Source of the DNA: a virus
Taxonomy: Duplodnaviria; Caudoviricetes
Virus record (IMG/VR): IMGVR_UViG_3300028840_003032
Coordinates: 1-53,500 of that record
Length of the DNA: 53,500 bases
Strand: one strand, 5' to 3'
Part shown: piece by piece, positions 21,513-51,860 of the stretch
Position numbering within the stretch: the stretch's first letter is position 1
How the letters are laid out: each line of letters starts with the position of its first letter
Made by a program: the position numbers and the translations under genes
The notes under the pieces: model-generated
Told to the model about the DNA's origin: nothing
What the model saw: the letters and a program-made list of their open reading frames with translations, nothing else
The model's database searches: none

Positions 21513-22522
21513 AGTTTGATATCACAGATTACGTTGAGAGCAATCTCGATAGCGTGAGAACGACCTCCAGCGGGGAGTTGATGGCGGAGTGCCCATGGTG
21601 CGGTCGCTATGGAGGGTTCTACGTGAGCCCAAAGACGGGAAACTACATTTGCTTTAAGTGCGACGAGAAAGGGCGCCATCTCGTTGGGGTGGTCGCCCAA
21701 GTCGAAGGTATCAGTTGGCGGGAAGCGAAGCGATTCATCCTCAAGCGGGCGGTCCAATTCCGTCGCAAAGAGACGCCGCAGAGCTTGCTAGAAAAAATCC
21801 AAGCGTTGCGCCCAAGCGATGGGAAGGGAAAATCCGACGATGAAGACGAGCTAGTGGAGGCGGAACTGCCCGAAGAATTCGTCCCAGTCTACAAGGACGG
21901 GCGTTGGAAATTTCCGGCGTATTTGAAGTTGCGAGGTATCAAACGCGAGACGGCGAAAGCGTGGGGCTTGGGCTTCTGTAACGAGGGCAAGTACGCAGGT
22001 CGAATTATCGTCCCAATTGAATGCCCGAACGGGTACTCATTCGCTGCTCGCGATACGACCGGAAAACAAGAGCCAAAAATCCTTCACCCCGAATACGCCG
22101 ATCACGGGAAACTTCTCATCGGATGGGAGCACATCCGACCGGGAGAAGATGTCGCAATCGTGGAAGGTCCGTTCGACGCGCTCAAGTGGTTTCAGCACGG
22201 CATTCGAGCTATCGGTTTGGGAGGAAAAACGCTCCATGAAGAGCAACTAGAAATGCTCTTGAAATTTCCCTCCGACACGAGCATAATCGTCGCACTCGAC
22301 CCGGACGAAATCGAAGGCCCATCGCTCGTGGCGCAGCAACTCATTTCGCATTTCGAAAACGTCTACATTGCGGAGCTTCCGGAAGGAATCGACCCAGGGG
22401 AAACGACGAAAAAGCAAGCGAAGGAAGCGTGCGAATGCGCGCATCTATATAGAGGCAAACAAGAGCTTTTGTCGGCTAAATTAAGGGTTTCAAGGAAAAA
22501 GTTAGAGGGAATTTACCAATGA
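21509..22522 (+). CDS. DnaG-type DNA primase (Zn finger plus TOPRIM)
   Basis: CPWC...CFKC zinc domain, 'IVEGPFDA', 'ALDPD' and 'GIDPG'. Confidence 0.9.
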   Translation: MKFDITDYVESNLDSVRTTSSGELMAECPWCGRYGGFYVSPKTGNYICFKCDEKGRHLVGVVAQVEGISWREAKRFILKRAVQFRRKETPQSLLEKIQALRPSDGKGKSDDEDELVEAELPEEFVPVYKDGRWKFPAYLKLRGIKRETAKAWGLGFCNEGKYAGRIIVPIECPNGYSFAARDTTGKQEPKILHPEYADHGKLLIGWEHIRPGEDVAIVEGPFDALKWFQHGIRAIGLGGKTLHEEQLEMLLKFPSDTSIIVALDPDEIEGPSLVAQQLISHFENVYIAELPEGIDPGETTKKQAKEACECAHLYRGKQELLSAKLRVSRKKLEGIYQ

Positions 22523-22567
22523 TTACAGGAGGTTAAAACTTTTTTCAATTAAGTTGGTAAATTCCCT
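22506..22567. repeat. 14-bp perfect inverted repeat AGGGAATTTACCAA / TTGGTAAATTCCCT
   Basis: Arms at 22506-22519 and 22554-22567 with a 34-nt AT-rich spacer. The right arm abuts the promoter -35. Confidence 0.8.
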
Positions 22568-22634
22568 TCCCTTTTAAATTGAAAAGCCCTATATTTAATG
22601 TATGGAGAAGAACTCAAAAAAAAGGAGTCCAAAA
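22567..22634 (+). promoter_or_regulatory. Putative early (sigma70-like) promoter, copy 1
   Basis: TTCCCT-17bp-TATATT in an AT-rich island. The block ATTGAAAAG..CTA.ATTT.ATGTATGGAGA...CTCAAAAAAAAGG is shared with 49802-49849. Confidence 0.6.
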
Positions 22635-22976
22635 ATGACGACGAACCTTGACGTGATTTTCTACACGACGGCCACGGGGAATCTCGGCGCTAGTCTCGAC
22701 GGGGAGATTTTGGTGAACCACTTAGGTCGCCGCCTCCCTATTTCCGACGCATGGCAGGAGACGGACGCCGAATTAGACGACCTTACCGACGAGTGTTGGG
22801 AGGCTATCGAAGAAGAGGCGGACCGGGAAGAGAGGATAGCGGCGAACCGGGCGGAAGTTCCGAAGCGGATAAAAGCGAGGAAAGAAGCGAGGCGGAAAGA
22901 GAACCGGAGAGTGATGGTGGATTTCGTCGCGTATTACGAAAAAATTATCGCGGCCGGTCTCGCCAGGAGTCGTTAA
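22635..22976 (+). CDS. Hypothetical early protein
   Basis: RBS motif AAAGGAGTCCAAAAATG; first gene after the promoter. Confidence 0.7.
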   Translation: MTTNLDVIFYTTATGNLGASLDGEILVNHLGRRLPISDAWQETDAELDDLTDECWEAIEEEADREERIAANRAEVPKRIKARKEARRKENRRVMVDFVAYYEKIIAAGLARSR

Positions 22977-22986
22977 AAAAAAGGGA

Positions 22987-23050
22987 AACGGGGGACGGGG
23001 AAACCCCCTTACACACAGCCCGAAAAAGGGCGAAAAAAAAGGAGTCCAAA
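22987..23050 (+). promoter_or_regulatory. Conserved two-hairpin intergenic element plus RBS, copy 1
   Basis: GGGGG-acggggaaa-CCCCC, ttacacaca, GCCC-gaaaaa-GGGC, A-run, GGAGTCCAAA. Near-copy at 50082-50142. Confidence 0.7.
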
Positions 23051-24238
23051 ATGGGGAAAGCAAGAAACGAATTAGACGATGATGGAAGGCGAAAGGTAGA
23101 ATGTCTTGAGTGCGGCGGGAAATACTACCATCGCCTTGACGTCCATCTCCCGGCGAAGCACAAGATCAAGGTAGCGGATTACCGGGCGAAATATCCCGGC
23201 GCCGCCACCATGAGCGAGTACGCGAAAGAACGCGCCTCCAAAGCCCAAAGCGGCCGGGGAAAAGTCGCCGCCCCGAAGACGCCCACGACGCACACGGAAA
23301 AGGCCGAAGAAACTCGCATCGAAGTTGAGGGCGAGTATCGCATCGGCGTTGCGCGCCTCCACAAGAGAGACGACCTCACAGAGCTGGACAAAGCCTACGT
23401 CCCGAAGCACGACGAAAATTACATTTTCGGGGACGTCGAAATGGAGAACTGGGAGGATGTCGCGGTGGGCATCGAAGACGGCGAACCCGTCTACATCGGC
23501 GGACCGACCGGGTGCGGCAAGACGATGGGGGTGATGGAGATGGCGGCGGTCCTCAATCAACCCGTTCGGCGCGTCCAGTTAAACCGCGATTTCAAGGTGG
23601 GGGAATTCGTGGGACGCGGAACGCTCGTCACGGACGATGACGGGAACACGATCACGGGGTGGAAGGACGGCGTGCTGACCGAGGCGATGAGGAACGGATG
23701 GTGGCTCTTGCTCGACGAAATCGATCAGTCGCATCCCGACGTTCTGATGAAGCTTCAAGCGGTGCTCGAAGGGTCGCCGCTGGTCCTCACCGAGAATTTC
23801 GGGGAGGTCGTTCGACCTCATCCCCGGTTCCGGGTCATCGCGACGGCGAACACTTTCGGACGCGGCGATGAGGCGGGTTTGTACGTCGGAGCGAAGGTGA
23901 TGAACGAGGCGATGATGGACCGCTTCGGAGTCGTCATCAAGGCCGAATACCCGAAAGCCGAAACCGAGGTCACGATCATTTCGCGTCGCACGGGACTCGG
24001 GAAGCGCGAAGCGATGAAGATGGTGAAGGTCGCGCACAAGGTTAGGGAGGCGCTGGAGAAAGAGGAATGTTGTTGTACGTTCTCGACCCGTCGCCTGGTC
24101 GCCTGGGCGCACAAGACGGTTCGCTATCGGGGAGACGCGCGCAGGGCGTCGAAGACGGCCATCTTGAATAAGATGGAGACGGAGGATGCCCGCTTCGTTA
24201 ACCACCTGGTCCAGCGCTACTTCGGCGGTGAGGTATAG
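23051..24238 (+). CDS. MoxR/CobS-like AAA+ ATPase with an N-terminal C2H2 (Ros/MucR-like) zinc finger
   Basis: GPTGCGKT, LLLDEID, 'HPRFRVIATANT' and 'FSTRRL'. N-terminal CLEC..YHRLDVHL..KH. Start at the RBS motif (23051). Confidence 0.9.
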   Translation: MGKARNELDDDGRRKVECLECGGKYYHRLDVHLPAKHKIKVADYRAKYPGAATMSEYAKERASKAQSGRGKVAAPKTPTTHTEKAEETRIEVEGEYRIGVARLHKRDDLTELDKAYVPKHDENYIFGDVEMENWEDVAVGIEDGEPVYIGGPTGCGKTMGVMEMAAVLNQPVRRVQLNRDFKVGEFVGRGTLVTDDDGNTITGWKDGVLTEAMRNGWWLLLDEIDQSHPDVLMKLQAVLEGSPLVLTENFGEVVRPHPRFRVIATANTFGRGDEAGLYVGAKVMNEAMMDRFGVVIKAEYPKAETEVTIISRRTGLGKREAMKMVKVAHKVREALEKEECCCTFSTRRLVAWAHKTVRYRGDARRASKTAILNKMETEDARFVNHLVQRYFGGEV

Positions 24239-24245
24239 AAAGGAG

Positions 24246-26420
24246 ATGGAGACGATGTCTAAGAGAAAATCGAATCTACTCCTTGGGGACTTCGAAAAAG
24301 TAGCGCGGGCGATGGCCGGTCGCTACGACATCAAGGTGGTCGCTTCCAACGCTTGCGCGACGGACGGTCGCACGATTTACTTCCCCTCAAACGCGGACGA
24401 TTTCGACGCGCATACGCTCAATCAGTTGAGCGGCTACAACGACCACGAGGTGGGGCATATCCGCGAAGAGGACCGCCACGCACTCGCCGGGAAGGAGACG
24501 CCGATCACGATCATAAGTCGCCTTCCGACGTCGAAGCAGAAAATGTTCTTCAATATCTTCGACGACATCCGGATGGAGCGACGGGAAGCGCAAGAGCACG
24601 TGGGCGTCGCAGAGAATCTTCGCGCATCGGCCGATTACTGTAAAAAGGTAATCGCGAAAGAAGCGAAGCGCGGCAAGGTCGATTTCTGGAGGGGACTCGG
24701 GACGGGCATCCTGGCGAAAGCCCACGGGCAGAAGGCGAGCTGGCTCACGCCCGCCCATAAGCCCTACATGGACGCAATCGAAGAGGAGATTGAGGAGTGC
24801 TGCGACATCACGAAGACGGTTTGGGGTTCGGACGTCGAAAACCTCGTTGAGCGCGTCCTCATCAAGCTGAACGAGACGGCTGAGGCGCTGGAAGAGGAGA
24901 AAGAGCGACGGGAAGAGGAGAAGAAGCGGAAAGAGGAAGAAGAGAAGCAGGAGCAGGAGGGTGAGGAGGAAGGGAGCGCCGGGGAAGGCGACGAAGAGGG
25001 TGGCGAGGAAGGTGAAGAGGAGAGTGAGGAGAACGGCACAGGAGATGAGATGGAGGAGGGTGAGGGCGACGGGTCAGGGACGGGCGCTGGCGATGAGGAG
25101 GGAGAGGAAGAGGATGGCGAGGGTGCGGCCGACTCGGACGGGACCGATGACGGAGAAGACCTTGGGGCGAGCGATGGCGAGGACGGCACGAGCGAACCCG
25201 GAACGCCGGATGCGGGCGAGGGTGAGGAGAACGGCAGCGAGGATGGGGCGGACTCCGATGAGGGCGCCGATACCGACGACACCACGGGAAGCGATGGCGC
25301 GGACGCTAGCGGCAAGGAGTCGAAGCGGAATCAGAATCTGGACGACGAAGACGATGGCGGGGAGTTCTCCGACCTGAGCGATGAGGAGCTGGAAGAAGCG
25401 GCGGACCTGGCCGATGAGGTTGCGAAGGACGCGGCGACCGACGACCTGATGGATGAGCTCAAAGACGAGATCAACAAGAAAGCGAAAAGCGCTCACGAGC
25501 GCACCGGTCGATACGCGGCCACGACGCAAGCGTTGAAAGAGGATGAATGGTTCGCGCCTCACAAGGATGAGGCCGCATACGAGGCGGCGAAGAAGACCGT
25601 TGCGCCGCAGATCAAGGGGATGAAGTCGAAGCTCATCAACCTCATCCGGTCTCAGGCGGAAGATACGATGGTGGGGGACCGGGAAGAGGGAGACTTGGAC
25701 GATGACGCTCTTCATACCGTCCGGACCGGGAACCGGAGAGTGTATACCCAGCTGGTGAACGGGACTCCGCTGGACACGGCGGTTTCTATCCTCATCGATC
25801 AAAGCGGGTCGATGGGAGGTAGCCGGATCAAATGCGCGAGGGAGATGGCGGTGGCGTTGGGCGAGACGTTCAACGCTCTGGGCGTACCTTTCGAGATCAT
25901 CGGGTTTGAGAATCGTTACCTCAAGCACGGTCGCTCGATCACTCAAGGCGAGGCCACGAACCCTTCGCTCAGGAAGAAGCGTTACAACTTCCGGACCTTC
26001 AAGACCTTCGATGAGTCCTATCGCCGCGTGAAGGCTCGCTTGGGAAATTGCCACGCCCACGGCGATAACGCCGATGGCGAGGCGGTGCTTGAGACTGCGA
26101 AGCGTCTTATCGTCCGCCCCGAAAGTCGCAAGCTTCTTTTCGTCCTGAGCGACGGTCAACCCGCTTGCGCCGGAACTAGCCGACACGTCTTGGCGAATCA
26201 CCTCAAGGAGGTTATCGAGAAAGTGACCGCAAGCGGAATCGAGGTCATCGGAATCGGTTGCGAGTACGAAGGCGTGAAAGAATACTATAACGAAGAACAC
26301 GGCGCCTCTCACACCGTTGTTTACGACGTCCAGAAACTGGCCGTCAAGGTCTACAAGATCATGAAAGATCAACTGCTGGGGAAAGGTCGGAAGCGCGGCC
26401 GGAAAGGAGCTGCGGCATGA
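24246..26420 (+). CDS. CobT-like VWA protein (N-terminal HExxH, acidic linker, MIDAS); start 24246 or 24255
   Basis: 'ATDGRTIY', 'DHEVGH', a long D/E/G linker, 'LIDQSGSM' MIDAS and 'VLSDGQP'. Confidence 0.9.
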   Translation: METMSKRKSNLLLGDFEKVARAMAGRYDIKVVASNACATDGRTIYFPSNADDFDAHTLNQLSGYNDHEVGHIREEDRHALAGKETPITIISRLPTSKQKMFFNIFDDIRMERREAQEHVGVAENLRASADYCKKVIAKEAKRGKVDFWRGLGTGILAKAHGQKASWLTPAHKPYMDAIEEEIEECCDITKTVWGSDVENLVERVLIKLNETAEALEEEKERREEEKKRKEEEEKQEQEGEEEGSAGEGDEEGGEEGEEESEENGTGDEMEEGEGDGSGTGAGDEEGEEEDGEGAADSDGTDDGEDLGASDGEDGTSEPGTPDAGEGEENGSEDGADSDEGADTDDTTGSDGADASGKESKRNQNLDDEDDGGEFSDLSDEELEEAADLADEVAKDAATDDLMDELKDEINKKAKSAHERTGRYAATTQALKEDEWFAPHKDEAAYEAAKKTVAPQIKGMKSKLINLIRSQAEDTMVGDREEGDLDDDALHTVRTGNRRVYTQLVNGTPLDTAVSILIDQSGSMGGSRIKCAREMAVALGETFNALGVPFEIIGFENRYLKHGRSITQGEATNPSLRKKRYNFRTFKTFDESYRRVKARLGNCHAHGDNADGEAVLETAKRLIVRPESRKLLFVLSDGQPACAGTSRHVLANHLKEVIEKVTASGIEVIGIGCEYEGVKEYYNEEHGASHTVVYDVQKLAVKVYKIMKDQLLGKGRKRGRKGAAA

Positions 26421-27526
26421 CGGTTCATTTCCCGAAAGGCGCCCGGTGTCCCGACGAATACCACGAGATGTGGCCGCAACTCGAAAAGCAAATGCTCCCC
26501 TACATCAAAGCAAAAGCGAAGCGCATCAAGACGTTCACGGGCGGACTCGATATGGACGACGCAATTCAAGAGGGACGTCTTGCGCTACTCTCGGTCATCA
26601 TCAAGGGTAAATACGACTACACGAAAGGCGAGTTGGGGAGGTACATCGGGAAGGTTCTCGACAATACGTACCGCAGCATGCTCTATCAAATGCTAAGCCA
26701 GACTAGGATGCCGCGCGCAATCGTGAGGGGAGACGGCGGGGAGTGGGTGGAACTCCCGGCTCCACCGATGTCTCTCAACGGCTTAGAGGCGGACCCAGGA
26801 GGATGGGGCGATGACGTCGGGAATCGAACTGCTCTCTCAAAGGCGCTCACCGAAGCGGAAGTCCCAACGCCGGAAGGGTTCATCGAGTATCAAGAGATGG
26901 AGGAGCAAGCGAAGATTTTTAAACTCAAGCTTCTCAATAGCCTGAAGGGGAGGGACAAAAAGGTTTTCGAGTGCCGCACAAATCCGCCCGTCGATTTTCT
27001 CAAGATGGTGGAGAATATCGGCGGTGATATCTACAATCCCACGATACCTCAGATTGCGGAATACCTGGGCATCAATAAGAATGCCGTTGACTATTCGATT
27101 AGCAAGATCAAATCGGTATTTACGCGCATGGCGCGCCAAGAAGAATTCAGCGACCTTTTTGGAGAACGGTTAGAGACGAAAGAGTGGCCGATGATAAGAA
27201 TGAGTAGGACAGCGAAGCACGACCGCGAATTTGTACGACGAATCATCCAACAACGAGAACTGGACCCCAAGCCGGTCGAAGGGTACGAGAGTGAACCCGA
27301 CTTCTATCAAAAGGCGGGGATGTATAGTCGGCTCATCGAGCGATACCCTTGGGGAGTGGTTCTGGTCGTTAGGAGGAAGGGCACTTGGAGGACGATGGTC
27401 ATCGAGTGTACCGCTTTCAACTCTTCTAGCGGTTCGATTTCGGGAGAACGGGGGACCAAAGAAAAAGTCCCCGTGAAATGGTATCCTCAATTGGTGAAAG
27501 CCTTAGCAGAAGGGACGAAGTCATGA
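26417..27526 (+). CDS. Sigma70-family phage sigma factor with a C-terminal extension
   Basis: Region 2 'DMDDAIQEGRLALL...YD..KG....Y' and region 4 HTH 'TIPQIAEYLGINKNAV'. Confidence 0.75.
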   Translation: MTVHFPKGARCPDEYHEMWPQLEKQMLPYIKAKAKRIKTFTGGLDMDDAIQEGRLALLSVIIKGKYDYTKGELGRYIGKVLDNTYRSMLYQMLSQTRMPRAIVRGDGGEWVELPAPPMSLNGLEADPGGWGDDVGNRTALSKALTEAEVPTPEGFIEYQEMEEQAKIFKLKLLNSLKGRDKKVFECRTNPPVDFLKMVENIGGDIYNPTIPQIAEYLGINKNAVDYSISKIKSVFTRMARQEEFSDLFGERLETKEWPMIRMSRTAKHDREFVRRIIQQRELDPKPVEGYESEPDFYQKAGMYSRLIERYPWGVVLVVRRKGTWRTMVIECTAFNSSSGSISGERGTKEKVPVKWYPQLVKALAEGTKS

Positions 27527-28374
27527 GCGACGTTTCCGCACCTCCCCTTTCGCATTGTATCGGGGAATACGAGAACGGAGATTCAACATGCGACGGCGGG
27601 GACGGGGAAGCACCTTGCTCGTGGAAGGAACGTTGCGCCGCGTTCCAGCTACACCTTACAAAGACCGGCCAGCAAGCGAGTCGCTATGTGAAGTACGGCG
27701 CAAAGAAGACGGACGGCGACACGCATTACTACGCTGAGCCCAAAACCTCGTTGGAGGAGTTCGCCCGATTCTGCGATGGCCTCATCGGCAAGGAGACGAA
27801 GACGCAAGCGCCGGTCGTTGAGGAGGAAGAAGAGAAGAAGAGGAAAACGAGAAGCGATAAGTATGGTCACGACAAGCGCCGGGACGGACCCTCAGCAAGG
27901 GCCAAGCGGGCGGCAGCGGCATCGCTCAAACGCAGAGCGAAGGAACGCCGGGAAGCGCTGTACAAATTGTTCGACGGTTTCAAGAACCAACTCGTGGAGG
28001 AGTTAGACGGACCGGAGTTTGCGCCGGCAGGGTTGCCCGTCTCCCACGGGTTTCTCTACATCTCGGACAGGACGTCCTCAAGCAACTACCTTTCGGTGTA
28101 CTGCCGCACGATGAACGGATGGGACGCGCCTCTCATCATGCTTACCTTCCGGACGTCGCAGCTCAAGTTCCTCGCGCAACTTCCGGTTACTCCGGACGTG
28201 CTCGCAACGGCGATGTCGAAGAAAGACTTCAAGAAGCTGAAGCCCAAAGATACGGACGAAGGACGTTTCAGGAGCGCAATCGAAAACGTCGGCAAGGCGG
28301 AATTGTCCTTGCTCGCGGAAGTTATCGCCAAGCTGGTCAATGGCGGTAAAATAGAATTGCCCGAAGCGAGGTGA
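27523..28374 (+). CDS. Hypothetical protein with an N-terminal Cys cluster
   Basis: ATGA-coupled to the sigma gene; C-x10-C-x8-C-x5-C. Confidence 0.7.
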   Translation: MSDVSAPPLSHCIGEYENGDSTCDGGDGEAPCSWKERCAAFQLHLTKTGQQASRYVKYGAKKTDGDTHYYAEPKTSLEEFARFCDGLIGKETKTQAPVVEEEEEKKRKTRSDKYGHDKRRDGPSARAKRAAAASLKRRAKERREALYKLFDGFKNQLVEELDGPEFAPAGLPVSHGFLYISDRTSSSNYLSVYCRTMNGWDAPLIMLTFRTSQLKFLAQLPVTPDVLATAMSKKDFKKLKPKDTDEGRFRSAIENVGKAELSLLAEVIAKLVNGGKIELPEAR

Positions 28375-28376
28375 CC

Positions 28377-28477
28377 CCGGATGTTATCCCCACATCCGGC
28401 TTTGCCTCCCTCTCCACGGGCACCTCGCCGCACGGCGGTAGGATTTGGACTCCCCTGCCGTCGTGCGGCCCTTTTTT
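28377..28477 (+). ncRNA. Candidate 3'UTR-derived small RNA: three hairpins with C-rich anti-SD loops
   Basis: Stems 28377-84/28392-99 (loop UAUCCCC), 28403-07/28418-22 (loop CCCUCUCCAC) and 28427-42/28454-69 (loop AUUUGGACUCC). Confidence 0.55.
28427..28477 (+). terminator. Rho-independent terminator of early operon 1
   Basis: 16-bp GC-rich stem (two G-U pairs) followed by CC and a U6 run. Confidence 0.8.
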
Positions 28478-28490
28478 ATCCTGAGAGGCT

Positions 28491-29453
28491 ATGAAGAGAG
28501 TAGTCATCGTTGGAGGCGGTATATCCGGCCTCATTTGTTCCTACGTCTTTCGCAAACGCAAAGACGTTCGAACGACTATCTTGGAGCCCAATCGAATAGG
28601 AGGCGAGTTCATCGCGGGCGGTTTGAAGTACATCCATCGAACGGACGCGATGGCGAGTATGCTCATCGACCTGGGATTGATCTTCTCCAACTACGTTACC
28701 CGTGGAGGCATACTGCTTCGCGGGAAGGTGCTCCCGTATCCCAAGTGTTTGAGGAGCATGGAAACCGAAGAGGCGAGACGCATCCAGGACGATCATTATC
28801 GCAAGACGCGATTAGCCGAACCGGGGAAGCATTCGGCAAGAGCGATGAACGACCCCGCAAGCACGAAACCGCGAAAGGCGTTGCGCACGGATTTCGTCTC
28901 ACTCATCGAGTCGTTGGCGGCGGGAAACGAGTTCATCCGACTCCCGTTGAAAAGCGTAATGAGGCACGCGGTTATCTTGGGAGACGGAAGGCTCATCCCG
29001 TATGATTACCTTGTGATGACGATTCCCCTATGGGCGATTCGTCGGTGCGTTGATTGGTACGTCCCTCACGGCATCGCGATGAAGCTGAACATCGTTAACA
29101 TGGCCCCACGGCGCGATAGGTTCGCAAAGTGGGATTACGTTTACACCCCCTACACTCCGGAAAACGCGGTCCACCGCTTCTCAATTCAGGACGCTGGGTA
29201 CGCAGTCGAAGTGAACGGCGAATTGGATATGGATAGGGTCGCCGGGGACTTGAACTTCATCTTCAGTAGCGGGTGGGCGATACGGAATATCCAACGCGAC
29301 TTGAAGGGGCATTTGCTTCCGTTGAAAGAGAAGACGGAATGGCCGTCCAACGTCGCTCCCATCGGACGGTTCGCGCAATGGGATTCGCGGATCACGGCGG
29401 ACGTTACCCTTGAGGACGCGGAGAAGCTAGCCAGGAGGTGGTTCGGTGGATAG
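28491..29453 (+). CDS. FAD-dependent oxidoreductase, UDP-galactopyranose-mutase-like fold
   Basis: Rossmann 'VVIVGGGISGL', 'YDYLVMTIPL' and C-terminal 'IGRFAQWD'. Confidence 0.7.
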   Translation: MKRVVIVGGGISGLICSYVFRKRKDVRTTILEPNRIGGEFIAGGLKYIHRTDAMASMLIDLGLIFSNYVTRGGILLRGKVLPYPKCLRSMETEEARRIQDDHYRKTRLAEPGKHSARAMNDPASTKPRKALRTDFVSLIESLAAGNEFIRLPLKSVMRHAVILGDGRLIPYDYLVMTIPLWAIRRCVDWYVPHGIAMKLNIVNMAPRRDRFAKWDYVYTPYTPENAVHRFSIQDAGYAVEVNGELDMDRVAGDLNFIFSSGWAIRNIQRDLKGHLLPLKEKTEWPSNVAPIGRFAQWDSRITADVTLEDAEKLARRWFGG

Positions 29454-30387
29454 GTGGGAGGAGATTTTCAAGCTTCAAGCGGCGCAGCAGGAGTCGTTCG
29501 GGATGGGTCCCCAGGAACTATCCCCGGTGGCCCGTTCGGAGGTAGCGAACCACCTATGCCTGGGGTTATACGAAGAAGCCGCAGAGCTTGCTCGTACAGC
29601 TGTTAGATTCAAGCGTCATCTACTACGCACGCCGCCCGTAGACCACAGCGAGGTCGTGGAAGAGGCGGCAGACGTCGTGAAATACGTGGTGGCGATAGCC
29701 CAACTCCACGGAATCGACGCAGAAAGCCTATTCTCGGCAATCCTTCGTAAGACCGATGTGGTGAAGGACCGGGCGGAAGGCGAGCAACTGGAACTGACCC
29801 GCGATAGTCGGATCATCCTCGTGGACTTGGACGGTTGCGTGGCCGACTTAGGACCGCTGGAGACGCTCACGGACGGGCGCCCCATCGAAGAGAAAGAGCG
29901 AATCAAAAAGGACTTCCGGCGCCGTGGGGGATTCCGGGACTTGCCCGTGGTGGAAGGAGCGCAAGAGGGATTAGCCGAATTGCGGCGCAACGGCTACAGG
30001 ATAGCGTTCGTCACCGCACGTCCCTACCGGCAGCACAAGAGACTCTACGCCGACACGGTCGAATGGTTGAGAATGAACGACATCGAGTATGAGCTACTTC
30101 TCTTTCAAAGGGATAAGGCGGAAGCACTCGTGGACTACATCTTCCCAGCGCGGCCGATATGCTTCATCGAAGACCGGGAGAAGCACGCATTGGAGATCAT
30201 CGCGACGGGAACCCACGTGTTGCTCCTCGATAGGAAGATGGATGGGCCGGTTCGCGTTTCGGACGGTCCGTTGATTACGAGAGTTTGGAACTGGGAAGGG
30301 ATACTCAATTGGGTGGAGAGCCAAGGAGAACGAAATGAACCCCGAACCGAAAGTGACGTTGGTAACGTGGACGAAGAATCCGCTTGA
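29446..30387 (+). CDS. MazG/all-alpha dNTP pyrophosphatase fused to a HAD 5'(3')-nucleotidase
   Basis: 'GLYEEAAEL...VVEEAADVVKY' (EExxE..ExxD), then 'LVDLDGCVAD', 'FVTARP' and 'FIEDR'. Confidence 0.85.
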   Translation: MDRWEEIFKLQAAQQESFGMGPQELSPVARSEVANHLCLGLYEEAAELARTAVRFKRHLLRTPPVDHSEVVEEAADVVKYVVAIAQLHGIDAESLFSAILRKTDVVKDRAEGEQLELTRDSRIILVDLDGCVADLGPLETLTDGRPIEEKERIKKDFRRRGGFRDLPVVEGAQEGLAELRRNGYRIAFVTARPYRQHKRLYADTVEWLRMNDIEYELLLFQRDKAEALVDYIFPARPICFIEDREKHALEIIATGTHVLLLDRKMDGPVRVSDGPLITRVWNWEGILNWVESQGERNEPRTESDVGNVDEESA

Positions 30388-31315
30388 GACGGTGTACGCC
30401 GTTTGGATGGCGAGTAAGAACGAAGAAGCGTTGATTGATCCGGCGCAGTTGTCCGGCGCCCTCAGGTCGCAATATTCGGAGGTGTCGCCCAACTTACCGT
30501 CTCAAGAAGAAGTCGAGACGCTTTTCAAAGCGGTCATCGCGCAACGTATTCCGATTGGGGAGCACGTTGATTTCGTCTTCGTGATGGAGAACGTTTCGGT
30601 GTCGTGGAGGGAGCAAGCGGTGAGGCACCGCATCGGAGTCGAGATTAGCCCAGAGCGATTGGGCATCGACCTCATCCCGGATTTGGCGAAGTCGAGTTGG
30701 TGGTCGCAGTCGATGCGAATCCAAAACATGGGCGAGTTCGCTAGCAACGGCGCGTATCGTCTCCCGGCGACGGTCAAGGGCCACGGCGAGATCACCGACA
30801 CGTACCACGAGACGATGAAGACGGTCCAAGACGCTTACAACAAGTTGGTGGCGGCGGGAGTCCCGATGGAGGACGCACGTGAACTAATCCCGTTGGGCGC
30901 TCATCATCGCATCTCATGGAAGCTCAACATCGGCGCCCTTCAGCATATCATCGGGAAGCGCGGGTGTTGGATACTTCAATTGGGAATCTGGGGTCCGGTT
31001 ATCCGGGGGATGATAGACGAGTTGGCGACGAAAGTGAATCCCATCTTCCGTGATCTCGTTCGACCTCCTTGCTTGAACGATTCGGACGATGAGCTGCCCT
31101 ACACGGGATGCGTCTATATGGAGGAGTGTCGGCGCCGGTTAACCGGAGACGACGCGCTGCCGCCGTGTCCGATTCATCTCAACTACGAAGGGAAGCACGA
31201 AGAGGGATTGGACCTACACAAACCCGTTCCGATGCTAGCGCAGATGAAAGAACGCGCAAAGCAATACGAGAAATTCTGGGGGAGAAATCCATACACAGGA
31301 GAGAAGATCAAATGA
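30335..31315 (+). CDS. thyX: Flavin-dependent thymidylate synthase (ThyX)-like protein, atypical motif
   Basis: 'EHVDFVF..ENVS...EQAVRHR' ... 'SQSMR', 'GVPMEDARELIP' and a Cys-rich C-terminus. Confidence 0.8.
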   Translation: MNPEPKVTLVTWTKNPLETVYAVWMASKNEEALIDPAQLSGALRSQYSEVSPNLPSQEEVETLFKAVIAQRIPIGEHVDFVFVMENVSVSWREQAVRHRIGVEISPERLGIDLIPDLAKSSWWSQSMRIQNMGEFASNGAYRLPATVKGHGEITDTYHETMKTVQDAYNKLVAAGVPMEDARELIPLGAHHRISWKLNIGALQHIIGKRGCWILQLGIWGPVIRGMIDELATKVNPIFRDLVRPPCLNDSDDELPYTGCVYMEECRRRLTGDDALPPCPIHLNYEGKHEEGLDLHKPVPMLAQMKERAKQYEKFWGRNPYTGEKIK

Positions 31316-38547: not shown

Positions 38548-38847
38548 ATGGCCGCTGAGCTAGGCTTGAAGAATTTGAAAGGCACCCACGGTGGTAAAAT
38601 CGACGGCGTCAAGTTGTTGGAAGAGTTCTTCGGCCATATCCTCAAGACGGTAAAGAACGGAGAAGCCGTGCGGATCAAAAACTTCGGGACGTTCTCAGCG
38701 AAGGTTTACAAGGGCCGCACTATCAATTCGCCGGTCATCCCAGAAGGTAAGAGGGAGTTCAGCGACAATTTGGTTCTTCGTTTCCATCAATCATCGGGAG
38801 CAAAGCAACGGCTCAACGCCGAAGCAGACGAAGGAGAGAAGCAATGA
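38548..38847 (+). CDS. HU/IHF-like DNA-binding protein
   Basis: 'GEAVRIKNFGTFS' and 'LRFHQS'. Confidence 0.8.
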   Translation: MAAELGLKNLKGTHGGKIDGVKLLEEFFGHILKTVKNGEAVRIKNFGTFSAKVYKGRTINSPVIPEGKREFSDNLVLRFHQSSGAKQRLNAEADEGEKQ

Positions 38848-39948: not shown

Positions 39949-41133
39949 ATGGGCGTGAATATGAAGAAGATGAGACGCGGATATGAGTCCCAGCAACGCG
40001 GCGGGGACTTCTGGAACGTGCCCGAGGGAGACAGCCTCGTGTACGTCCATCCGCCGTGTCGAGAGGAAGATGAGTATGAGCCCACCGAAGGGCTCAACTA
40101 CATCCCTGTCGCGGTTCATTACGCCGTTGGGAAGAATAACGCGATGTGCGTTTGCCTCGACAGCGACAATAACCCGATCATCAAGCACCCGTTCATCAAG
40201 GCGCTACTCAAGAAGCGCGGGATCAAGTTGGACGGCAATTGCCCCGTCTGCGAGGCTATCCAAGCCGGGAAGATGGACGCGGACGATGGCGACCGGAGCA
40301 GGGTCCAGACTCGCTATCTCTGGGGCCTCACGCTCCTCAAGCATCGCGGAAAGTCCTCGCAACCGTGGAACAAGGTCGCCGCGAAACCGGCCGTGGCCTT
40401 CGTCGGCAAGACCGTCTATGACGGCCTGATGGAGATGTTCTTCGACAACGGCGATATCACGGAGATGGGCGCCGCAATCCTCGCCAAGATCAACCGCGTC
40501 GGGACCGGCCCCACGGATACGAAGTACAAGGTGGCGGCCGACACCGAGTCGCTCAAGAAGCCGAAGAAGCTCGCAAAGCGATTGCGCGACATGGTCCTCA
40601 AGGCGCTCAAGGAAGGCGGCGACTGCGACCTGTTCCGAATCGTCTCCCAGCTCATCAAGAGTCCCGAAGAGGTCGAAGCGGCGATGGCGGGCGTGAAGGT
40701 GGAACTCGATGAAGACGACGATGACGAAGACGACATCGAGGATGAGGAGGACACCACCGAGGATGACGGCGCCGAAGAGGATGAGGAAGAGGACGCCGAA
40801 GACGACGATGACGAGGACGATGAGGAGGACGACGAAGACGACGATGACGAGGACGATGAGGAGGACGACGAAGACGACGATGAGGAGGACGACGAAGACG
40901 ACGATGAGGATGAGGAGGACGATGAGGACGGCGACGATGGCGAAGAGGATGAGGAGGACGCCGAAGAGGACGATGGGGATGACGACGAAGAGGACGATGA
41001 CGAGCTGGAGCTGGACGAGCTAGACAAGGAGCTGGATCGCATCCACAAGGGCAAGAAGAAGACGCCCGCCAAGGAGAAGAAGAAGAAGCCGGCCAAGAAG
41101 TCTCCCGCCAAGAAGAAGTCCAAGAAGAAGTAG
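39949..41133 (+). CDS. gp32-like single-stranded DNA-binding protein with a very long acidic tail
   Basis: 'HY...C...CPVCE' and 'INRVGTGPTDTKY', then over 100 mostly D/E residues and a Lys-rich end. Lies upstream of RecA. Confidence 0.75.
   Translation: MGVNMKKMRRGYESQQRGGDFWNVPEGDSLVYVHPPCREEDEYEPTEGLNYIPVAVHYAVGKNNAMCVCLDSDNNPIIKHPFIKALLKKRGIKLDGNCPVCEAIQAGKMDADDGDRSRVQTRYLWGLTLLKHRGKSSQPWNKVAAKPAVAFVGKTVYDGLMEMFFDNGDITEMGAAILAKINRVGTGPTDTKYKVAADTESLKKPKKLAKRLRDMVLKALKEGGDCDLFRIVSQLIKSPEEVEAAMAGVKVELDEDDDDEDDIEDEEDTTEDDGAEEDEEEDAEDDDDEDDEEDDEDDDDEDDEEDDEDDDEEDDEDDDEDEEDDEDGDDGEEDEEDAEEDDGDDDEEDDDELELDELDKELDRIHKGKKKTPAKEKKKKPAKKSPAKKKSKKK
40798..40869 (+). repeat. 36-bp tandem duplication (EDDDDEDDEEDD x2) in the SSB tail
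   Basis: gaagacgacgatgacgaggacgatgaggaggacgac at 40798 and 40834. Confidence 0.85.
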
Positions 41134-49670: not shown

Positions 49671-49790
49671 CCGCGTACAATCGGCGTCTTTTCCGCCCAA
49701 ATTCTCCTCTTTTTCAAAATAGGGATGCGGCTAAAAAATTAAAGATTTCAACGCGTTGTAATTTTCTTTTGAAAAAGCGCGTATCTTCTC

Positions 49791-49859
49791 TTTACTATTA
49801 GATTGAAAAGAACTAAATTTTATGTATGGAGATGGTCTCAAAAAAAAGGGGAAACGAAA
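49791..49859 (+). promoter_or_regulatory. Putative early (sigma70-like) promoter, copy 2
   Basis: TTTACT-17bp-TAAATT in an AT-rich island. Shares a ~48-nt block with 22578-22625. Confidence 0.65.
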
Positions 49860-50075: not shown

Positions 50076-50081
50076 AGGGAG

Positions 50082-50142
50082 AACGGGGGACGGAAACCCC
50101 CTACACATAGCCCCAACGGGCGAAAAGAAAAGGAGTCCAAAA
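50082..50142 (+). promoter_or_regulatory. Conserved two-hairpin intergenic element plus RBS, copy 2
   Basis: GGGGG-acggaaa-CCCCC, tacacata, GCCC-caac-GGGC, A-rich, GGAGTCCAAA. Confidence 0.7.
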
Positions 50143-50742
50143 ATGAGAACCACAACGGGAGTAAACAAGGCGAGGAAGAGGCTGGAAGAGGACATGGACA
50201 CGCGCAGGACGTCGTTCATCGAAGCGGTCCGGGAATCGCTCATCGACGCGGGCCACGAACTCGATACCGGCCACGGCGTTTCGCGAGTGGACGACATCGG
50301 CATCTACATGGAGGTCGGCAAGCAGGATTCGGGCGGCGCTTTCCGGACGCATTACAACGGCCGACTCTACTACACGCTGGGAGACTACGGCAACAAGCAA
50401 ACGTACCCGGAGCCCAAAAAGGGTTTCGACGTCGCCAAGGCGGTCGAGAGAATTCTGGAACGGGTCGAAGGCGGGAAGAGGCGGAAGGAGGCTCGCAAGA
50501 AGAGTGACGAGAAGAAGAAAGCGGCCAAGGTCACTCTTCGCAGGGCGTGCGCGAAAATCGAGATGGACGAGCACAACCGACCGAAGGACTGGAGCGATGA
50601 GGCGGACTTGCGATGGGATAAGAAGTCCCCGGAGACGCTTCGCAAGGTCAAGACGCTCGACGCGGACCGGGTTGAGGCGACGTTCGCCCTCACCCCGGAG
50701 ATGTTTGAGAAGGTCGTGAAACTGATCGACGTGATCGGATAA
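50143..50742 (+). CDS. Hypothetical early protein
   Basis: GGAGTCCAAAAATG RBS. Confidence 0.75.
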   Translation: MRTTTGVNKARKRLEEDMDTRRTSFIEAVRESLIDAGHELDTGHGVSRVDDIGIYMEVGKQDSGGAFRTHYNGRLYYTLGDYGNKQTYPEPKKGFDVAKAVERILERVEGGKRRKEARKKSDEKKKAAKVTLRRACAKIEMDEHNRPKDWSDEADLRWDKKSPETLRKVKTLDADRVEATFALTPEMFEKVVKLIDVIG

Positions 50743-50756
50743 TAAAGGAGTCCAAA

Positions 50757-51860
50757 ATGAAAACGACGAAAGAAGAAAAGACGACGAAGGTGGAGACGAG
50801 CTATCTGATGTGGGTCGGTGCCGCTCACTACCCCACGATCAAAAGCTACGTCGAAGAGGCGCTTGAGATGGGTATCTCAAAGCGACTCCCGAACGCGGCG
50901 GTGGCGGAGAAGATGCTTGAGGCGAACACGGTCGTATTCGTCGCCCACGACGAAGGCGAGTATCACGAATGCCCCGAGTGCTTGGGGACTATCGAGTGCC
51001 CCGAGTGTCGCAAGCGGTCGGAGCGAATCAACCGCCTCAAAATCGAGCGTGAGGACTTCTGCGAAGAGGAGATGGCGCTGGAGTCGAAGGTCAAGAAGAT
51101 GGAACTGGAGGTCGCCAACTCCGAAGAGAGGGATCACGACGCGACGGACGCCCTCAAGGAGAAGATCAAGGAGACGAAGACGAAGATGAAGCGCTGCGAG
51201 ACGAAGACTCAGAAGCGCAGCGAGAAAATCCACGAGCTTCTTGCCGAGCAAATGAACTGCGTCGATTGCGACGGGGAAGGGACGATGAGCGGCGGAACGG
51301 GCGGCAAGGTCGTCTTCGGGGATAAGGACGTTTGGGAATACCGGCGTTACAACTACTGGCTCCACCTTCCGAAGAAGTGGACCGCCGAAAAGAAGAACGG
51401 CGTGGCGGCCGAAGAGATGTGCGAGAACTGCGGCGGCACCGGGCGCCTCCCCAACGGTCGAATCTTCGGGATGTTCCTCCCCAGCGCCACCGAATACGTC
51501 CTCAAGCCTGAGGATGAGGAAGAGTTCAAAAAGGAAATCGAAGCGAAGGGCATCGAGACGGTAGCGAAGACGATAGTGGAAGCGGAACGGAAGCGCGGCT
51601 GCGGCAAGCGGAAGGCGGGCGGATACTACGCCGTCACGAACCCGAAGACGGCGACCGCCGAAGAGGTGACGACGAAGATGAAGGAGCTAATCGAAAAGGG
51701 CGTCATCAAGTACGAAGAGGTGAAGGTGAGCGGCAACTTCGTAGAATTTTTGGCGCCGGTCGAAATCGCTTCAAAGCGGTTCCGAGGTATCAAGCGGTGG
51801 TCTCTCGACCCGGCTGCGGAAGAGGAAGCGGAGATGGCGCTTGACGCGATGGAGGACTAG
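50757..51860 (+). CDS. Hypothetical protein with DnaJ-like CxxCxGxG zinc motifs and a coiled-coil insert
   Basis: CPECLG, CPEC, CVDCDGEG, CENCGGTG and 'RGCGKRKAGGYY'; GGAGTCCAAAATG RBS. Confidence 0.75.
   Translation: MKTTKEEKTTKVETSYLMWVGAAHYPTIKSYVEEALEMGISKRLPNAAVAEKMLEANTVVFVAHDEGEYHECPECLGTIECPECRKRSERINRLKIEREDFCEEEMALESKVKKMELEVANSEERDHDATDALKEKIKETKTKMKRCETKTQKRSEKIHELLAEQMNCVDCDGEGTMSGGTGGKVVFGDKDVWEYRRYNYWLHLPKKWTAEKKNGVAAEEMCENCGGTGRLPNGRIFGMFLPSATEYVLKPEDEEEFKKEIEAKGIETVAKTIVEAERKRGCGKRKAGGYYAVTNPKTATAEEVTTKMKELIEKGVIKYEEVKVSGNFVEFLAPVEIASKRFRGIKRWSLDPAAEEEAEMALDAMED

What the first reader, a model, noticed from the sequence alone, without database searches (positions are those of the whole stretch)
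28377..28477. Terminator-loop antisense RNA matching the shared RBS of early genes: candidate phage sRNA shut-off circuit
Seen: the 3' end of early operon 1 folds into three hairpins, all with C-rich single-stranded loops. The 11-nt loop of the terminator hairpin (28443-28453, AUUUGGACUCC) contains UUUGGACUCC, the perfect reverse complement of GGAGUCCAAA. That motif covers the SD-to-start region of four early genes, two in this operon and two 22 kb away. A given 10-mer is expected about once per 10^6 nt, and here it fills a loop almost exactly. Loop 1 (UAUCCCC) could pair with the GGGGA SD of the lead gene that lacks the motif (49860), and loop 2 (UCUCCA) matches UGGAGA at both predicted early 5' ends; these two matches are weaker. 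G-U pairs and the U-tail fix the + strand. Established: C-rich-loop sRNAs such as S. aureus RNAIII block SDs, and 3'UTR-derived sRNAs exist. Inference: completing the early transcript produces a multi-target translational repressor, a built-in timer for the early-to-middle switch. I do not know of a described equivalent in phages.
Basis: partly seen in the sequence, partly recalled or inferred. Interest (0 to 1): 0.88.

Follow-up and report, generated by a model that had tools for sequence, protein, structure and literature searches.

The report
Phage hairpin loop matching early-gene ribosome sites
At the end of an early operon, this uncultured phage and its distant relatives carry a structured RNA element with an exposed segment complementary to the ribosome-binding sequence shared by their own early genes, and the two sequences change together between lineages, which points to an RNA-based control of early-gene translation.

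Summary
GGAGTCCAAA lies 0-1 nt before the ATG of four + strand genes. Its only reverse-complement copy in the record fills the 11-nt loop of a 16-bp terminator hairpin (28427-28469, T-run 28472-28477).

On its own this is only suggestive: about 0.2% chance per loop. The decisive evidence is comparative. Distant relatives (48-64% identity in the next gene) keep a long hairpin at the same spot, after the module CobS-like, CobT-like and two unknown genes. In all 7 lineages where the upstream module can be read, an exposed segment of this element is complementary to the Shine-Dalgarno, spacer and start region of upstream early genes. The sequences differ in each lineage (8-15 nt, -15 to -28 kcal/mol). 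In the three records where a shared early RBS can be defined independently, its only opposite-strand copy lies in this ~100-nt spacer. Three relatives without the element show no shared RBS.

Best reading: an anti-RBS RNA at the 3' end of an early operon represses translation of early genes, in cis, in trans or both. Pairing is well supported; repression, timing and RNA accumulation are untested.

Closest known: OppZ/CarZ autoregulatory 3'UTR sRNAs and icaR 3'UTR-SD pairing.

The parts
28443..28453 (+). Anti-RBS: the 11-nt apical loop AUUUGGACUCC. Ten of its nucleotides (28444-28453) are the exact complement of GGAGUCCAAA.
   Evidence: P(segment unpaired) = 0.7. Hybrid energy -16.0 kcal/mol with each of the 4 targets.
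28427..28469 (+). A 16-bp G+C-rich hairpin stem that carries the loop. It contains G-U pairs that would be mismatches on the - strand.
   Evidence: Relatives have an equivalent long stem of unrelated sequence at the same spot.
28470..28477 (+). CC plus a T6 tract: the tail of an intrinsic-terminator-like site, 13 nt before the next ATG (28491).
   Evidence: In my reading, a T-run follows the hairpin in 9 of 14 distinct relatives.
28377..28399 (+). Hairpin 1: an 8-bp stem with the loop UAUCCCC. A C-rich loop is also seen in a first hairpin of L154 and L161. No specific target is shown.
28403..28416 (+). A single-stranded CU-rich stretch, CCUCCCUCUCCA. It is generically anti-SD-like. It can pair with many SDs, including that of the next gene (GAGAGG, 28483-28488).
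22624..22637 (+). Target 1: the shared RBS GGAGTCCAAA, then A, then ATG, of a 113-aa gene that is first after the promoter-like repeat.
23041..23053 (+). Target 2: the shared RBS followed by the ATG of the CobS-like AAA+ ATPase gene (23051-24238).
   Evidence: The RBS of the orthologous gene is also the target in G002, G004, L156 and L160.
50132..50145 (+). Target 3: the shared RBS followed by the ATG of a 199-aa gene in the second promoter-proximal cluster.
50747..50759 (+). Target 4: the shared RBS followed by the ATG of a 367-aa gene. Its ortholog in G003 (start 67867) also carries that phage's shared RBS.
22540..22625 (+). An AT-rich promoter-like repeat, copy 1, that leads into the operon ending at the hairpin.
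   Evidence: family D14 (74% identity to copy 2). Promoter function is inferred, not shown.
49764..49849 (+). The promoter-like repeat, copy 2, ahead of the second cluster.
   Evidence: family D14.
22635..28374 (+). The operon body: a small gene, a CobS-like gene, a CobT-like gene and two unknown genes (26417-27526, 27523-28374). The module from CobS-like onward is syntenic in relatives.

Best explanation
The spacer between gene 27523-28374 and the FAD-oxidoreductase-like gene (28491) encodes a structured RNA at the 3' end of an early operon. Its stable hairpin displays a short 'anti-RBS' complementary to the extended ribosome-binding site (Shine-Dalgarno, spacer and sometimes the start codon) that this phage uses for a set of early genes. 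When this RNA end is made, it pairs with those sites and blocks 30S binding. It may act as the 3' end of the full operon mRNA or as a terminator-protected fragment. It would act on the leading genes of its own operon (cis or trans) and on other early transcripts (trans). This gives delayed negative feedback on early-protein synthesis.

Shown here: the structure, the complementarity, its conservation at a syntenic position, and its co-variation across lineages.

Inferred: that the pairing happens in RNA, that it represses rather than activates, that the targets are 'early', and whether it acts in cis or in trans.

My odds: a functional loop-RBS pairing of some kind, about 0.85; translational repression by the 3'-end RNA as stated, about 0.6.
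For: 1. Window. The only - strand copy of the 10-mer lies in an exposed 11-nt loop.

2. Position. I read the sequence upstream of the FAD-like gene in 25 of the 30 related loci. Of these 25, 16 loci (14 distinct sequences) have a long hairpin in the same spacer, with stems of unrelated sequence. The other 9 have no such spacer.

3. Co-variation. In every lineage where the start of the upstream module is on the contig (7 of 7), the element is complementary to an RBS upstream, with different letters each time:
- window: UUUGGACUCC with GGAGUCCAAA, 4 genes
- G002: GCUGAUCUCC with GGAGAUCAGC, 6 genes (one of them with 9 bp)
- G003: UGGCCGGUUCUC with GAGAACCGGCCA, 13 genes (10-12 nt of exact complement)
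- G004: UUUGAUCUCCUG with CAGGAGAUCAAA, 1 gene
- G005: UGGCCGGUUUCC with GGAGACCGGCCA, 1 gene (8 nt exact; 12 bp with one G-U)
- L156: AUUGGCCUUG with CAAGGCCAAU, 1 gene
- L160: CAUGGCUGACUUCC with GGAAGUCAGCCAUG, 2 genes (14 and 15 nt, covering the ATG)
Hybrid energies run from -15.1 to -28.3 kcal/mol.

4. Independent definition of the target. 9-mers repeated directly before starts were ranked without reference to the loop. GAACCGGCC tops the list in G003 (13 copies on +, 12 before starts). GGAGTCCAA (4 copies on +) in the window and GAGATCAGC in G002 rank just below low-complexity coding repeats. For the window and G003 9-mers, and for the overlapping G002 9-mer GGAGATCAG that I picked by eye, the genome holds exactly one opposite-strand copy. 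That copy lies in the orthologous spacer of 88-116 nt. GAGATCAGC itself has a second - strand copy at 33222. By my arithmetic that is about 0.002 x 0.001 x 0.0008 if placement were random.

5. Mismatched-pair control. I compared each element's own upstream module with the modules of the other genomes. The longest complements on the diagonal are 10, 10, 10, 12, 9, 10, 14. The off-diagonal mean is 8.4 and the maximum 11. Only 9 of 20,000 permutations reach the observed mean.

6. Orthologous targets. The CobS-like gene's RBS is the target in 5 of 7 lineages (window, G002, G004, L156, L160). The ortholog of gene 50757 is a target in both the window and G003.

7. Variants that keep pairing as G-U: the G005 pair, G003 site 68937 (C to U) and G003 site 88197 (GUG start).

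8. Joint absence. G001, G006 and G007 lack the element, and no shared RBS was found in them.

9. Early character of the targets. In G003, sigma-70-like TTGACT-17-TACAAT/TAGAAT cassettes lie directly 5' of 6 of the 14 sites holding the shared RBS core.
Against: - There is no expression data of any kind. No RNA run was listed.
- In the window an accessibility-aware ranking puts another gene first: 15764, through the CU-rich stretch, at -15.9 kcal/mol. The four motif genes rank 2 (50757), 4 (50143), 11 (23051) and outside the listed top 14 (22635).
- A full 10-bp helix inside a closed 11-nt loop is sterically strained. This point rests on my general knowledge.
- Tested by length alone against all start-like windows of a genome, the matches are only modestly unusual: window 116/5000, G002 59/5000, G003 162/5000, G004 100/5000, G005 1414/5000, L156 1111/5000 and L160 0/5000 shuffles reach the observed length.
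- In relatives the anti-RBS is partly paired in the predicted fold, with opening costs of 4.6-13.8 kcal/mol.
- In G002 it lies 5' of the hairpin, across the stop codon, not in a loop.
- By my reading, 5 of 14 relatives lack a T-run, so termination is not universal.
- G004, G005 and L156 show one target each, and they are fragments.
- The lineages share ancestry, so they are not fully independent.
- Gene starts come from my own crude caller.
Confidence: 0.6

Rival explanations
1. The pairing is real, but regulation runs the other way. Abundant early mRNAs, through their shared RBS, bind the loop of the nascent hairpin. This changes termination or processing there and sets read-through into the downstream nucleotide-metabolism and replication genes (FAD-like, MazG/NT5C, ThyX, DnaE).
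For: The hairpin sits 13 nt before the next gene with no room for a promoter after it. Downstream genes follow without gaps on the same strand. G001 and G007, which lack the element, have the two genes abutting. By my reading, 5 of 14 relatives have no T-run, so the hairpin's role may not be simple termination.
Against: The complementarity is confined to the loop and never extends into the stem, so it offers no obvious way to stop the hairpin forming. In G002 the anti-RBS lies 5' of the hairpin. In L160 the complement includes the start codon, which is what occlusion of a ribosome site needs and which an antitermination signal does not.
Confidence: 0.12
2. The pairing is real but does not work by translational occlusion. 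The loop-RBS duplex would be a substrate for processing or decay (for example by RNase III). Alternatively it would protect or activate the early mRNAs.
For: The evidence for pairing is the same as above. In icaR the 3'UTR-SD duplex is also an RNase III substrate (PMC3868564, abstract read). The long perfect stems resemble the processing hairpins of T7 early RNA, which I recall from memory.
Against: Duplexes of 10-15 bp are short for RNase III, by my general knowledge. Covering the SD and the start codon is the classic geometry of repression. Nothing here separates this rival from the best explanation.
Confidence: 0.13
3. There is no RNA function. The complementarity would be chance in the window. 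In relatives it would be a by-product of DNA-level events, such as an inverted remnant of a mobile promoter-RBS cassette kept alike by gene conversion, or an orientation-independent DNA-binding site.
For: The per-loop chance in the window alone is not negligible once many loops are looked at (0.2% per loop). The length-only tests are weak. The shared RBS copies do travel in repeated cassettes.
Against: All 7 of 7 testable lineages keep complementarity at one syntenic spacer with different sequences. The single opposite-strand copy falls in that spacer in 3 of 3 records. Similarity to the cassette does not extend beyond the 8-15 nt that are paired. These tracts are short for gene conversion, by my general knowledge. 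G-U-compatible differences fit RNA pairing, not a DNA site. A DNA site would not need to sit in a hairpin apex.
Confidence: 0.08

Closest known systems
OppZ and CarZ, autoregulatory 3'UTR-derived sRNAs of Vibrio cholerae (Hoyos et al. 2020, PMC7398697; abstract and outline read)
   Same: A regulatory RNA comes from the 3' end of an operon, including its terminator. It base-pairs with its own operon's transcript to inhibit translation, giving post-transcriptional negative feedback.
   Different: Those are bacterial, released by RNase E and studied with Hfq. Here the element is phage-encoded and processing is unknown. The seed sits in the terminator loop itself. The target is an RBS sequence shared by 4-13 genes on several transcripts, not one operon. 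There is no sequence homology.
icaR mRNA 3'UTR-5'UTR pairing in Staphylococcus aureus (Ruiz de los Mozos et al. 2013, PMC3868564; abstract and outline read)
   Same: A C-rich anti-SD motif in a 3'UTR pairs with the Shine-Dalgarno region of the same mRNA. It blocks initiation and creates an RNase III substrate.
   Different: icaR is a single gene with a UCCCCUG motif that matches only the SD. Here the complement extends through a lineage-specific spacer to the start codon. The operon is about 5.9 kb long, and further targets lie on other transcripts.
c4 antisense RNA of phages P1 and P7 (as summarised in PMC12197685; passage read)
   Same: A phage-encoded structured RNA whose loop sequences pair around the RBS of a phage mRNA to block translation. 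Lineage-specific complementary sequences underlie the specificity (P1/P7 heteroimmunity).
   Different: c4 serves lysogenic immunity and controls the antirepressor. As I recall, it lies upstream of its target and is processed from the same transcript. Here the element is at the operon's 3' end in what looks like a lytic ~100-kb phage, with many targets. No Rfam family reached its gathering score in the window.
T4 RegB and RegA, and 3'-end/RBS pairing at T7 gene 1.2 (recalled from memory; not found in the searched library)
   Same: These are phage devices that shut down early-gene expression by acting at the ribosome-binding sites of early mRNAs. RegB cuts at GGAG and RegA binds initiation regions. 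In T7, an mRNA 3' end left by RNase III pairs with the gene 1.2 RBS.
   Different: RegA and RegB are proteins. The T7 case was described for one gene and in connection with processing-site mutants. Here an RNA element and a private RBS co-evolve across a clade.
C-rich-loop sRNAs of Firmicutes (RNAIII, RsaE; search listings only)
   Same: Exposed C- and U-rich hairpin loops pair with G-rich SD sequences of several mRNAs.
   Different: Those are stand-alone bacterial sRNA genes with short generic UCCC seeds. Here the seed includes a specific spacer. No Rfam family reached its gathering score. The only weak match is ar35 at 14.7 bits against a gathering score of 45, E = 0.93.

Membership tests
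Intrinsic (Rho-independent) terminator | G+C-rich stem-loop on the transcribed strand | tested here: met
   A 16-bp stem at 28427-28469. The + strand fold is -53.5 kcal/mol with z -6.5, and the - strand folds worse.
Intrinsic (Rho-independent) terminator | U-tract directly 3' of the stem | tested here: met
   CC plus T6 at 28470-28477. Among relatives a T-run follows the hairpin in 9 of 14 distinct sequences, by my reading.
Intrinsic (Rho-independent) terminator | Transcripts actually end there | not testable with these tools
   No RNA run was listed.
Autoregulatory 3'UTR-derived sRNA (OppZ/CarZ type) | Encoded at the 3' end of an operon, sharing its terminator | tested here: met
   The element lies after the last gene of the CobS-like/CobT-like module.
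Autoregulatory 3'UTR-derived sRNA (OppZ/CarZ type) | Base-pairs with the translation initiation region of a gene in its own operon | tested here: met
   This is computational only. There is 10-nt complementarity to the RBS of genes 22635 and 23051, and the pairing co-varies in 7 of 7 lineages.
Autoregulatory 3'UTR-derived sRNA (OppZ/CarZ type) | Accumulates as a stable small RNA released by RNase E, and depends on Hfq | not testable with these tools
   The host is unknown and there is no transcript data.
Autoregulatory 3'UTR-derived sRNA (OppZ/CarZ type) | Represses translation of the target | not testable with these tools
   This needs reporter or toeprint assays.
icaR-type 3'UTR/SD pairing in cis | An anti-SD motif in the 3'UTR complementary to the SD of the same mRNA | tested here: inconclusive
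   The complementarity is met. That the stretch from the promoter-like repeat at 22540-22625 to 28477 is one transcript is inferred only.
P1/P7 c4 antisense RNA | Sequence and structure homology to the curated family | tested here: not met
   No Rfam family reached its gathering score in the window. That Rfam holds a c4 model is recalled, not checked.
Any described RNA family (Rfam 15) | A match at the family's gathering score | tested here: not met
   0 matches in the 53.5-kb window. The best sub-threshold match at 28300-28520 is ar35, 14.7 bits against 45, E = 0.93.

The most novel reading that the evidence does not exclude
A clade of uncultured ~100-kb phages marks its early genes with a private, extended ribosome-binding sequence. 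It also encodes, at the end of one early operon, a single structured RNA whose exposed segment is the antisense of that sequence. This would be an RNA-only switch that turns off a whole temporal class of genes at the level of translation. The RBS 'code' and the 'anti-code' co-evolve in each lineage and may be orthogonal between lineages.
Probability: 0.5. Interest if true: 0.88.

Novelty: new variant of a known kind. Interest (0 to 1): 0.8.

Why it matters
Shut-off of phage early genes is classically attributed to proteins, such as T4 RegA and RegB, and to changes in transcription.

An RNA at an operon's 3' end that silences a class of genes through a shared, lineage-specific RBS would be a new solution to temporal control in phages. 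It would also be a natural example of a regulon defined by its ribosome-binding site.

The pairs differ between lineages, so they form a ready-made set of possibly orthogonal repressor/RBS pairs for testing and for synthetic biology.

The prediction is sharp and cheap to test with reporters and compensatory mutations, even without the unknown host.

Tried and rejected
- Close relatives. blastn of 26400-30400 against cultured phages found no match. A protein search with the FAD-like gene found none. DnaE matches reached at most 33% identity. The search for related loci with gene 27478-28374 or the CobT-like gene alone found none in viral contigs. The 3-sequence alignment A1 found none in viral contigs or metagenome contigs.
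- Exact-pattern scans. Almost all were single chance hits. For G003, multiple hits fell only in its own record, in the other record that also holds the near-identical locus L146, and in a 19-kb contig. No new lineage came out of this.
- Plain duplexfold ranking was rejected because it opens stems at no cost. It was replaced by an accessibility-aware score.
- The shuffle test against all start-like windows (after a time-out) has low power. It counts 1062-2587 pseudo-starts per whole record and 462-490 for the two 17-kb loci.
- L147 and L157 carry the hairpin, but their contigs begin inside the CobT-like and CobS-like genes, so the likely target is off the contig. There were no matches of 10 nt or more. 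This is uninformative.
- RNA evidence: no RNA holder was listed.
- Read laying showed relatives about 90% identical in X3 and X4. The table of differing letters was cut (375 rows not shown), so the loop letters of those relatives could not be read. Only the X4 RBS variant GGAGTCTAAAATG was seen, as a loose end.
- A test of whether a -10-like TAAAAT in the last codons of gene 27523-28374 is conserved failed on a script error. I did not repeat it.
- Literature. Searches and the review PMC12197685 (passages read) gave no description of a terminator-loop or 3'-end anti-RBS acting on phage early genes. Supplementary files were not consulted.
Full report
**What the window is.** The window is a whole IMG/VR virus record of 53,500 bases, estimated 54% complete. 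All long ORFs lie on the + strand. It encodes baseplate-like proteins, a DnaE-type polymerase, ThyX, a MazG/NT5C-like protein, and a CobS-like AAA+ ATPase with a CobT-like VWA protein. No cultured phage is close: there is no DNA match, no match to the FAD-like protein, and DnaE identity is 33% or less.

**The observation.** GGAGTCCAAA occurs four times on the + strand and once on the - strand. The expected count is 0.10, and 0 of 100 shuffles reached 5.
- The + copies end 0-1 nt before the ATGs of genes 22635 (113 aa), 23051 (CobS-like), 50143 (199 aa) and 50757 (367 aa).
- The - copy is 10 of the 11 loop nucleotides of a 16-bp hairpin (28427-28469). CC plus T6 follows it, 13 nt before the next gene.
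- The + strand folds much better than shuffles (z -6.5) and better than the - strand.
- Hairpin 1 (loop UAUCCCC) is solid.
That region is better seen as a single-stranded CU-rich stretch.

**How unusual it is on its own.** A shuffled or random 11-mer has a complement of 10 nt or more in the -20..+3 windows of my 55 gene starts in about 0.2% of trials (37 and 38 of 20,000).
- With a dozen or more loops to look at, this is suggestive but not decisive.
- The four RBS copies share repeated context, so they are not four independent events (D16).
- An accessibility-aware energy ranking does not isolate the four genes. The CU-rich stretch pairs with the RBS of gene 15764 at -15.9 kcal/mol. The motif genes score -11.3 (50757), -11.0 (50143) and -9.0 (23051), ranking 2, 4 and 11. 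Gene 22635 is outside the listed top 14.
I drop them.

**Relatives.** Close relatives exist: 73-74% protein identity and about 90% DNA identity in runs X3 and X4. Their DNA could not be obtained in readable form.
- More distant relatives were found with the DnaE protein. More came from an alignment of the FAD-oxidoreductase-like gene that follows the hairpin: 9 viral loci and 21 metagenome loci at 29-64% identity.
- The module CobS-like, CobT-like, g26417, g27523, then the FAD-like gene is syntenic in G001-G004, G006, G007, L156 and L160. G005 has a reduced version.
- I read the sequence upstream of the FAD-like gene in 25 loci.
- Sixteen loci (14 distinct sequences) have a spacer with a long hairpin. 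Its stem sequences are unrelated between lineages. By my reading, 9 of the 14 are followed by a T-run. Nine loci have no such spacer.
- The apical regions share short words: YUUGG(C)C and, towards the 3' side, (GAU)CUCC. So the window's loop, UUUGG-A-CUCC, is a compact version of a conserved design.

**Co-variation.** In every lineage where the start of the upstream module is available, an exposed part of the element is complementary to the Shine-Dalgarno, spacer and start region of one or more genes upstream. The letters differ each time.

| Lineage | Anti-RBS in the element | RBS target | Genes matched |
|---|---|---|---|
| window | UUUGGACUCC | GGAGUCCAAA | 4 |
| G002 | GCUGAUCUCC | GGAGAUCAGC | 6 (one with 9 bp) |
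| G003 | UGGCCGGUUCUC | GAGAACCGGCCA | 13 with an ORF of 50 aa or more (10-12 nt of exact complement) |
| G004 | UUUGAUCUCCUG | CAGGAGAUCAAA | 1 |
| G005 | UGGCCGGUUUCC | GGAGACCGGCCA | 1 (8 nt exact; 12 bp with one G-U) |
| L156 | AUUGGCCUUG | CAAGGCCAAU | 1 |
| L160 | CAUGGCUGACUUCC | GGAAGUCAGCCAUG | 2 (14 and 15 nt, including the ATG) |

- Hybrid energies run from -15.1 to -28.3 kcal/mol.
- The CobS-like gene's RBS is the target in five lineages (window, G002, G004, L156, L160).
- The CobT-like gene's RBS is a target in G002 and L160.
- The small gene ahead of the CobS-like gene is a target in the window and G003.
- The ortholog of gene 50757 is a target in the window and G003.
- G004, G005 and L156 are fragments and show one target each.

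**Statistics that do not depend on having seen the loop first.**
- *Single opposite-strand copy.* I ranked 9-mers repeated directly before start codons. GAACCGGCC is the top 9-mer in G003. GGAGTCCAA in the window and GAGATCAGC in G002 are the top ones after low-complexity coding repeats. The window and G003 9-mers each have exactly one opposite-strand copy in the whole record. So does the overlapping G002 9-mer GGAGATCAG, which I picked by eye. GAGATCAGC itself has a second - strand copy at 33222. In all three records that single copy lies in the orthologous spacer (116, 105 and 88 nt of 53,500, 104,326 and 105,429 bases). If one copy were placed at random the chances would be about 0.002, 0.001 and 0.0008 (my arithmetic).
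- *Mismatched-pair control.* I paired each element with the start-like windows of each genome's upstream 7 kb. The diagonal is 10, 10, 10, 12, 9, 10, 14. The off-diagonal mean is 8.4 and the maximum 11. Only 9 of 20,000 permutations reach the observed mean. With 7 lineages the floor is 1 in 5040.
- *Length-only shuffle test.* This test against every start-like window in a genome is weak, and I report it as such. The numbers of shuffles (of 5000) reaching the observed length are 116 (window), 59 (G002), 162 (G003), 100 (G004), 1414 (G005), 1111 (L156) and 0 (L160).
- *Joint absence.* G001, G006 and G007 lack the element, and I found no shared RBS in them. Their repeated 9-mers are a promoter-like motif or coding repeats. 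This fits joint presence and absence, but n is 3 against 3.

**RNA or DNA.** Several differences keep pairing only as G-U: the G005 pair, G003 site 68937 (C to U) and G003 site 88197 (GUG start). The anti-RBS sits at a hairpin apex in six of seven lineages. In G002 it lies 5' of the hairpin, across the stop codon. Similarity to the RBS cassettes never extends beyond the paired 8-15 nt. These points favour RNA-RNA pairing over an orientation-free DNA site or an inverted cassette remnant.

**Are the targets early genes?** In G003, sigma-70-like cassettes (TTGACT, 17 nt, TACAAT or TAGAAT) lie directly 5' of 6 of the 14 sites holding the shared RBS core, and most targets are small genes in clusters. 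In G002 the CobS-like and CobT-like genes are each preceded by a repeated promoter-like motif. In the window two 86-nt AT-rich repeats (74% identical) lead into the two clusters that hold the targets. Their promoter type is unclear, because the consensus scan does not call them. 'Early' is therefore a reasonable inference, not a result.

**Mechanism.** Covering the SD through to the start codon is the standard geometry for blocking 30S binding. The element lies about 5.9 kb downstream of the first targets in the same transcription direction. It would therefore appear only after the operon is completed, and a terminator hairpin would protect it.
- I cannot tell whether it acts within the same mRNA, as a released fragment, or from its own promoter. 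A -10-like TAAAAT lies in the last codons of the upstream gene, but I did not manage to test it.
- Caveats:
  - A closed 11-nt loop cannot easily form all 10 pairs.
  - In relatives the segment is partly paired, with opening costs of 4.6-13.8 kcal/mol.
  - Five of 14 relatives lack a T-run.
  - There is no RNA evidence of any kind.
- Rivals that keep the pairing but change its consequence cannot be excluded. These are control of read-through into the replication genes, duplex-triggered processing, and protection of the mRNAs.

**Comparison with what is known.**
- No Rfam family reaches its gathering score in the window. The only weak match is noise.
- The nearest described mechanisms are the autoregulatory 3'UTR-derived sRNAs OppZ and CarZ (PMC7398697, abstract read) and the icaR 3'UTR-SD pairing (PMC3868564, abstract read).
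- Among phages the nearest is the c4 RNA of P1 and P7 (PMC12197685, passage read).
- T4 RegA and RegB, and the T7 gene 1.2 case, are functional analogies that I recall but could not retrieve.
- My searches and the 2025 review of phage sRNAs did not turn up an anti-RBS at an operon's 3' end matched to a shared early-gene RBS.
- I rate it a new variant of a known kind.

**Verdict.** The pairing relationship is strongly supported by comparative evidence. The regulatory outcome is inferred. The side claims about loops 1 and 2 are rejected.

Noticed in passing
window 22507-22519 and 22554-22566: A 13-bp perfect inverted repeat (GGGAATTTACCAA / TTGGTAAATTCCC). It straddles the stop codon of gene 21581-22522, just 5' of the promoter-like repeat. 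It could be a terminator or an operator at the late/early boundary.
   Followed up: no
window ~22985-23053 and ~50078-50145: A repeated intergenic block: a GGGGG-N9-CCCCC hairpin, then a GCCC-loop-GGGC hairpin, an A-run and the shared RBS. It looks like a mobile regulatory cassette in front of the CobS-like gene and gene 50143.
   Followed up: partly
window 28325-28352: A promoter-like site (TCGCCA, 16 nt, TAAAAT; 9 of 12) whose -10 lies in the last codons (GGT AAA ATA) of gene 27523-28374. Relatives show TAnnAT-like letters at the same codons. The element might therefore have its own promoter. My script to test this failed.
   Followed up: partly
window 28403-28416 with 28483-28488: The CU-rich stretch can pair with the SD (GAGAGG) of the next gene in read-through RNA, enclosing the terminator hairpin. 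This may be a cis control of the FAD-like gene.
   Followed up: partly
G003 (L175-L180), e.g. 38750-38832, 67430-67514, 76280-76359, 87040-87127: Near-identical sigma-70-like cassettes (TTGACT, 17 nt, TACAAT or TAGAAT) directly 5' of 6 of the 14 sites holding the shared RBS core.
   Followed up: partly
G001 (L139-L144) 70.6-98.3 kb; G002 166, 2210, 71855, 73169: A repeated promoter-like motif, AAAAAAGTTCTCGAC(T)TGTGGAAGC, occurs 8 times in G001. A related AAAAGTTCTTGCC precedes genes that carry the shared RBS in G002.
   Followed up: no
window 22608-23033 (run X3) and 22621 (run X4): A relative about 90% identical in X3 lacks the small gene 22635-22976 (a joint skips 424 nt). A relative in X4 reads GGAGTCTAAAATG at the first RBS.
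   Followed up: partly
window 3711-3991 and 40690-41045: Three tandem 102-nt repeats inside a gene (71-78% identity to the reference copy). A long acidic D/E-coding low-complexity repeat lies in gene 39949-41133.
   Followed up: no
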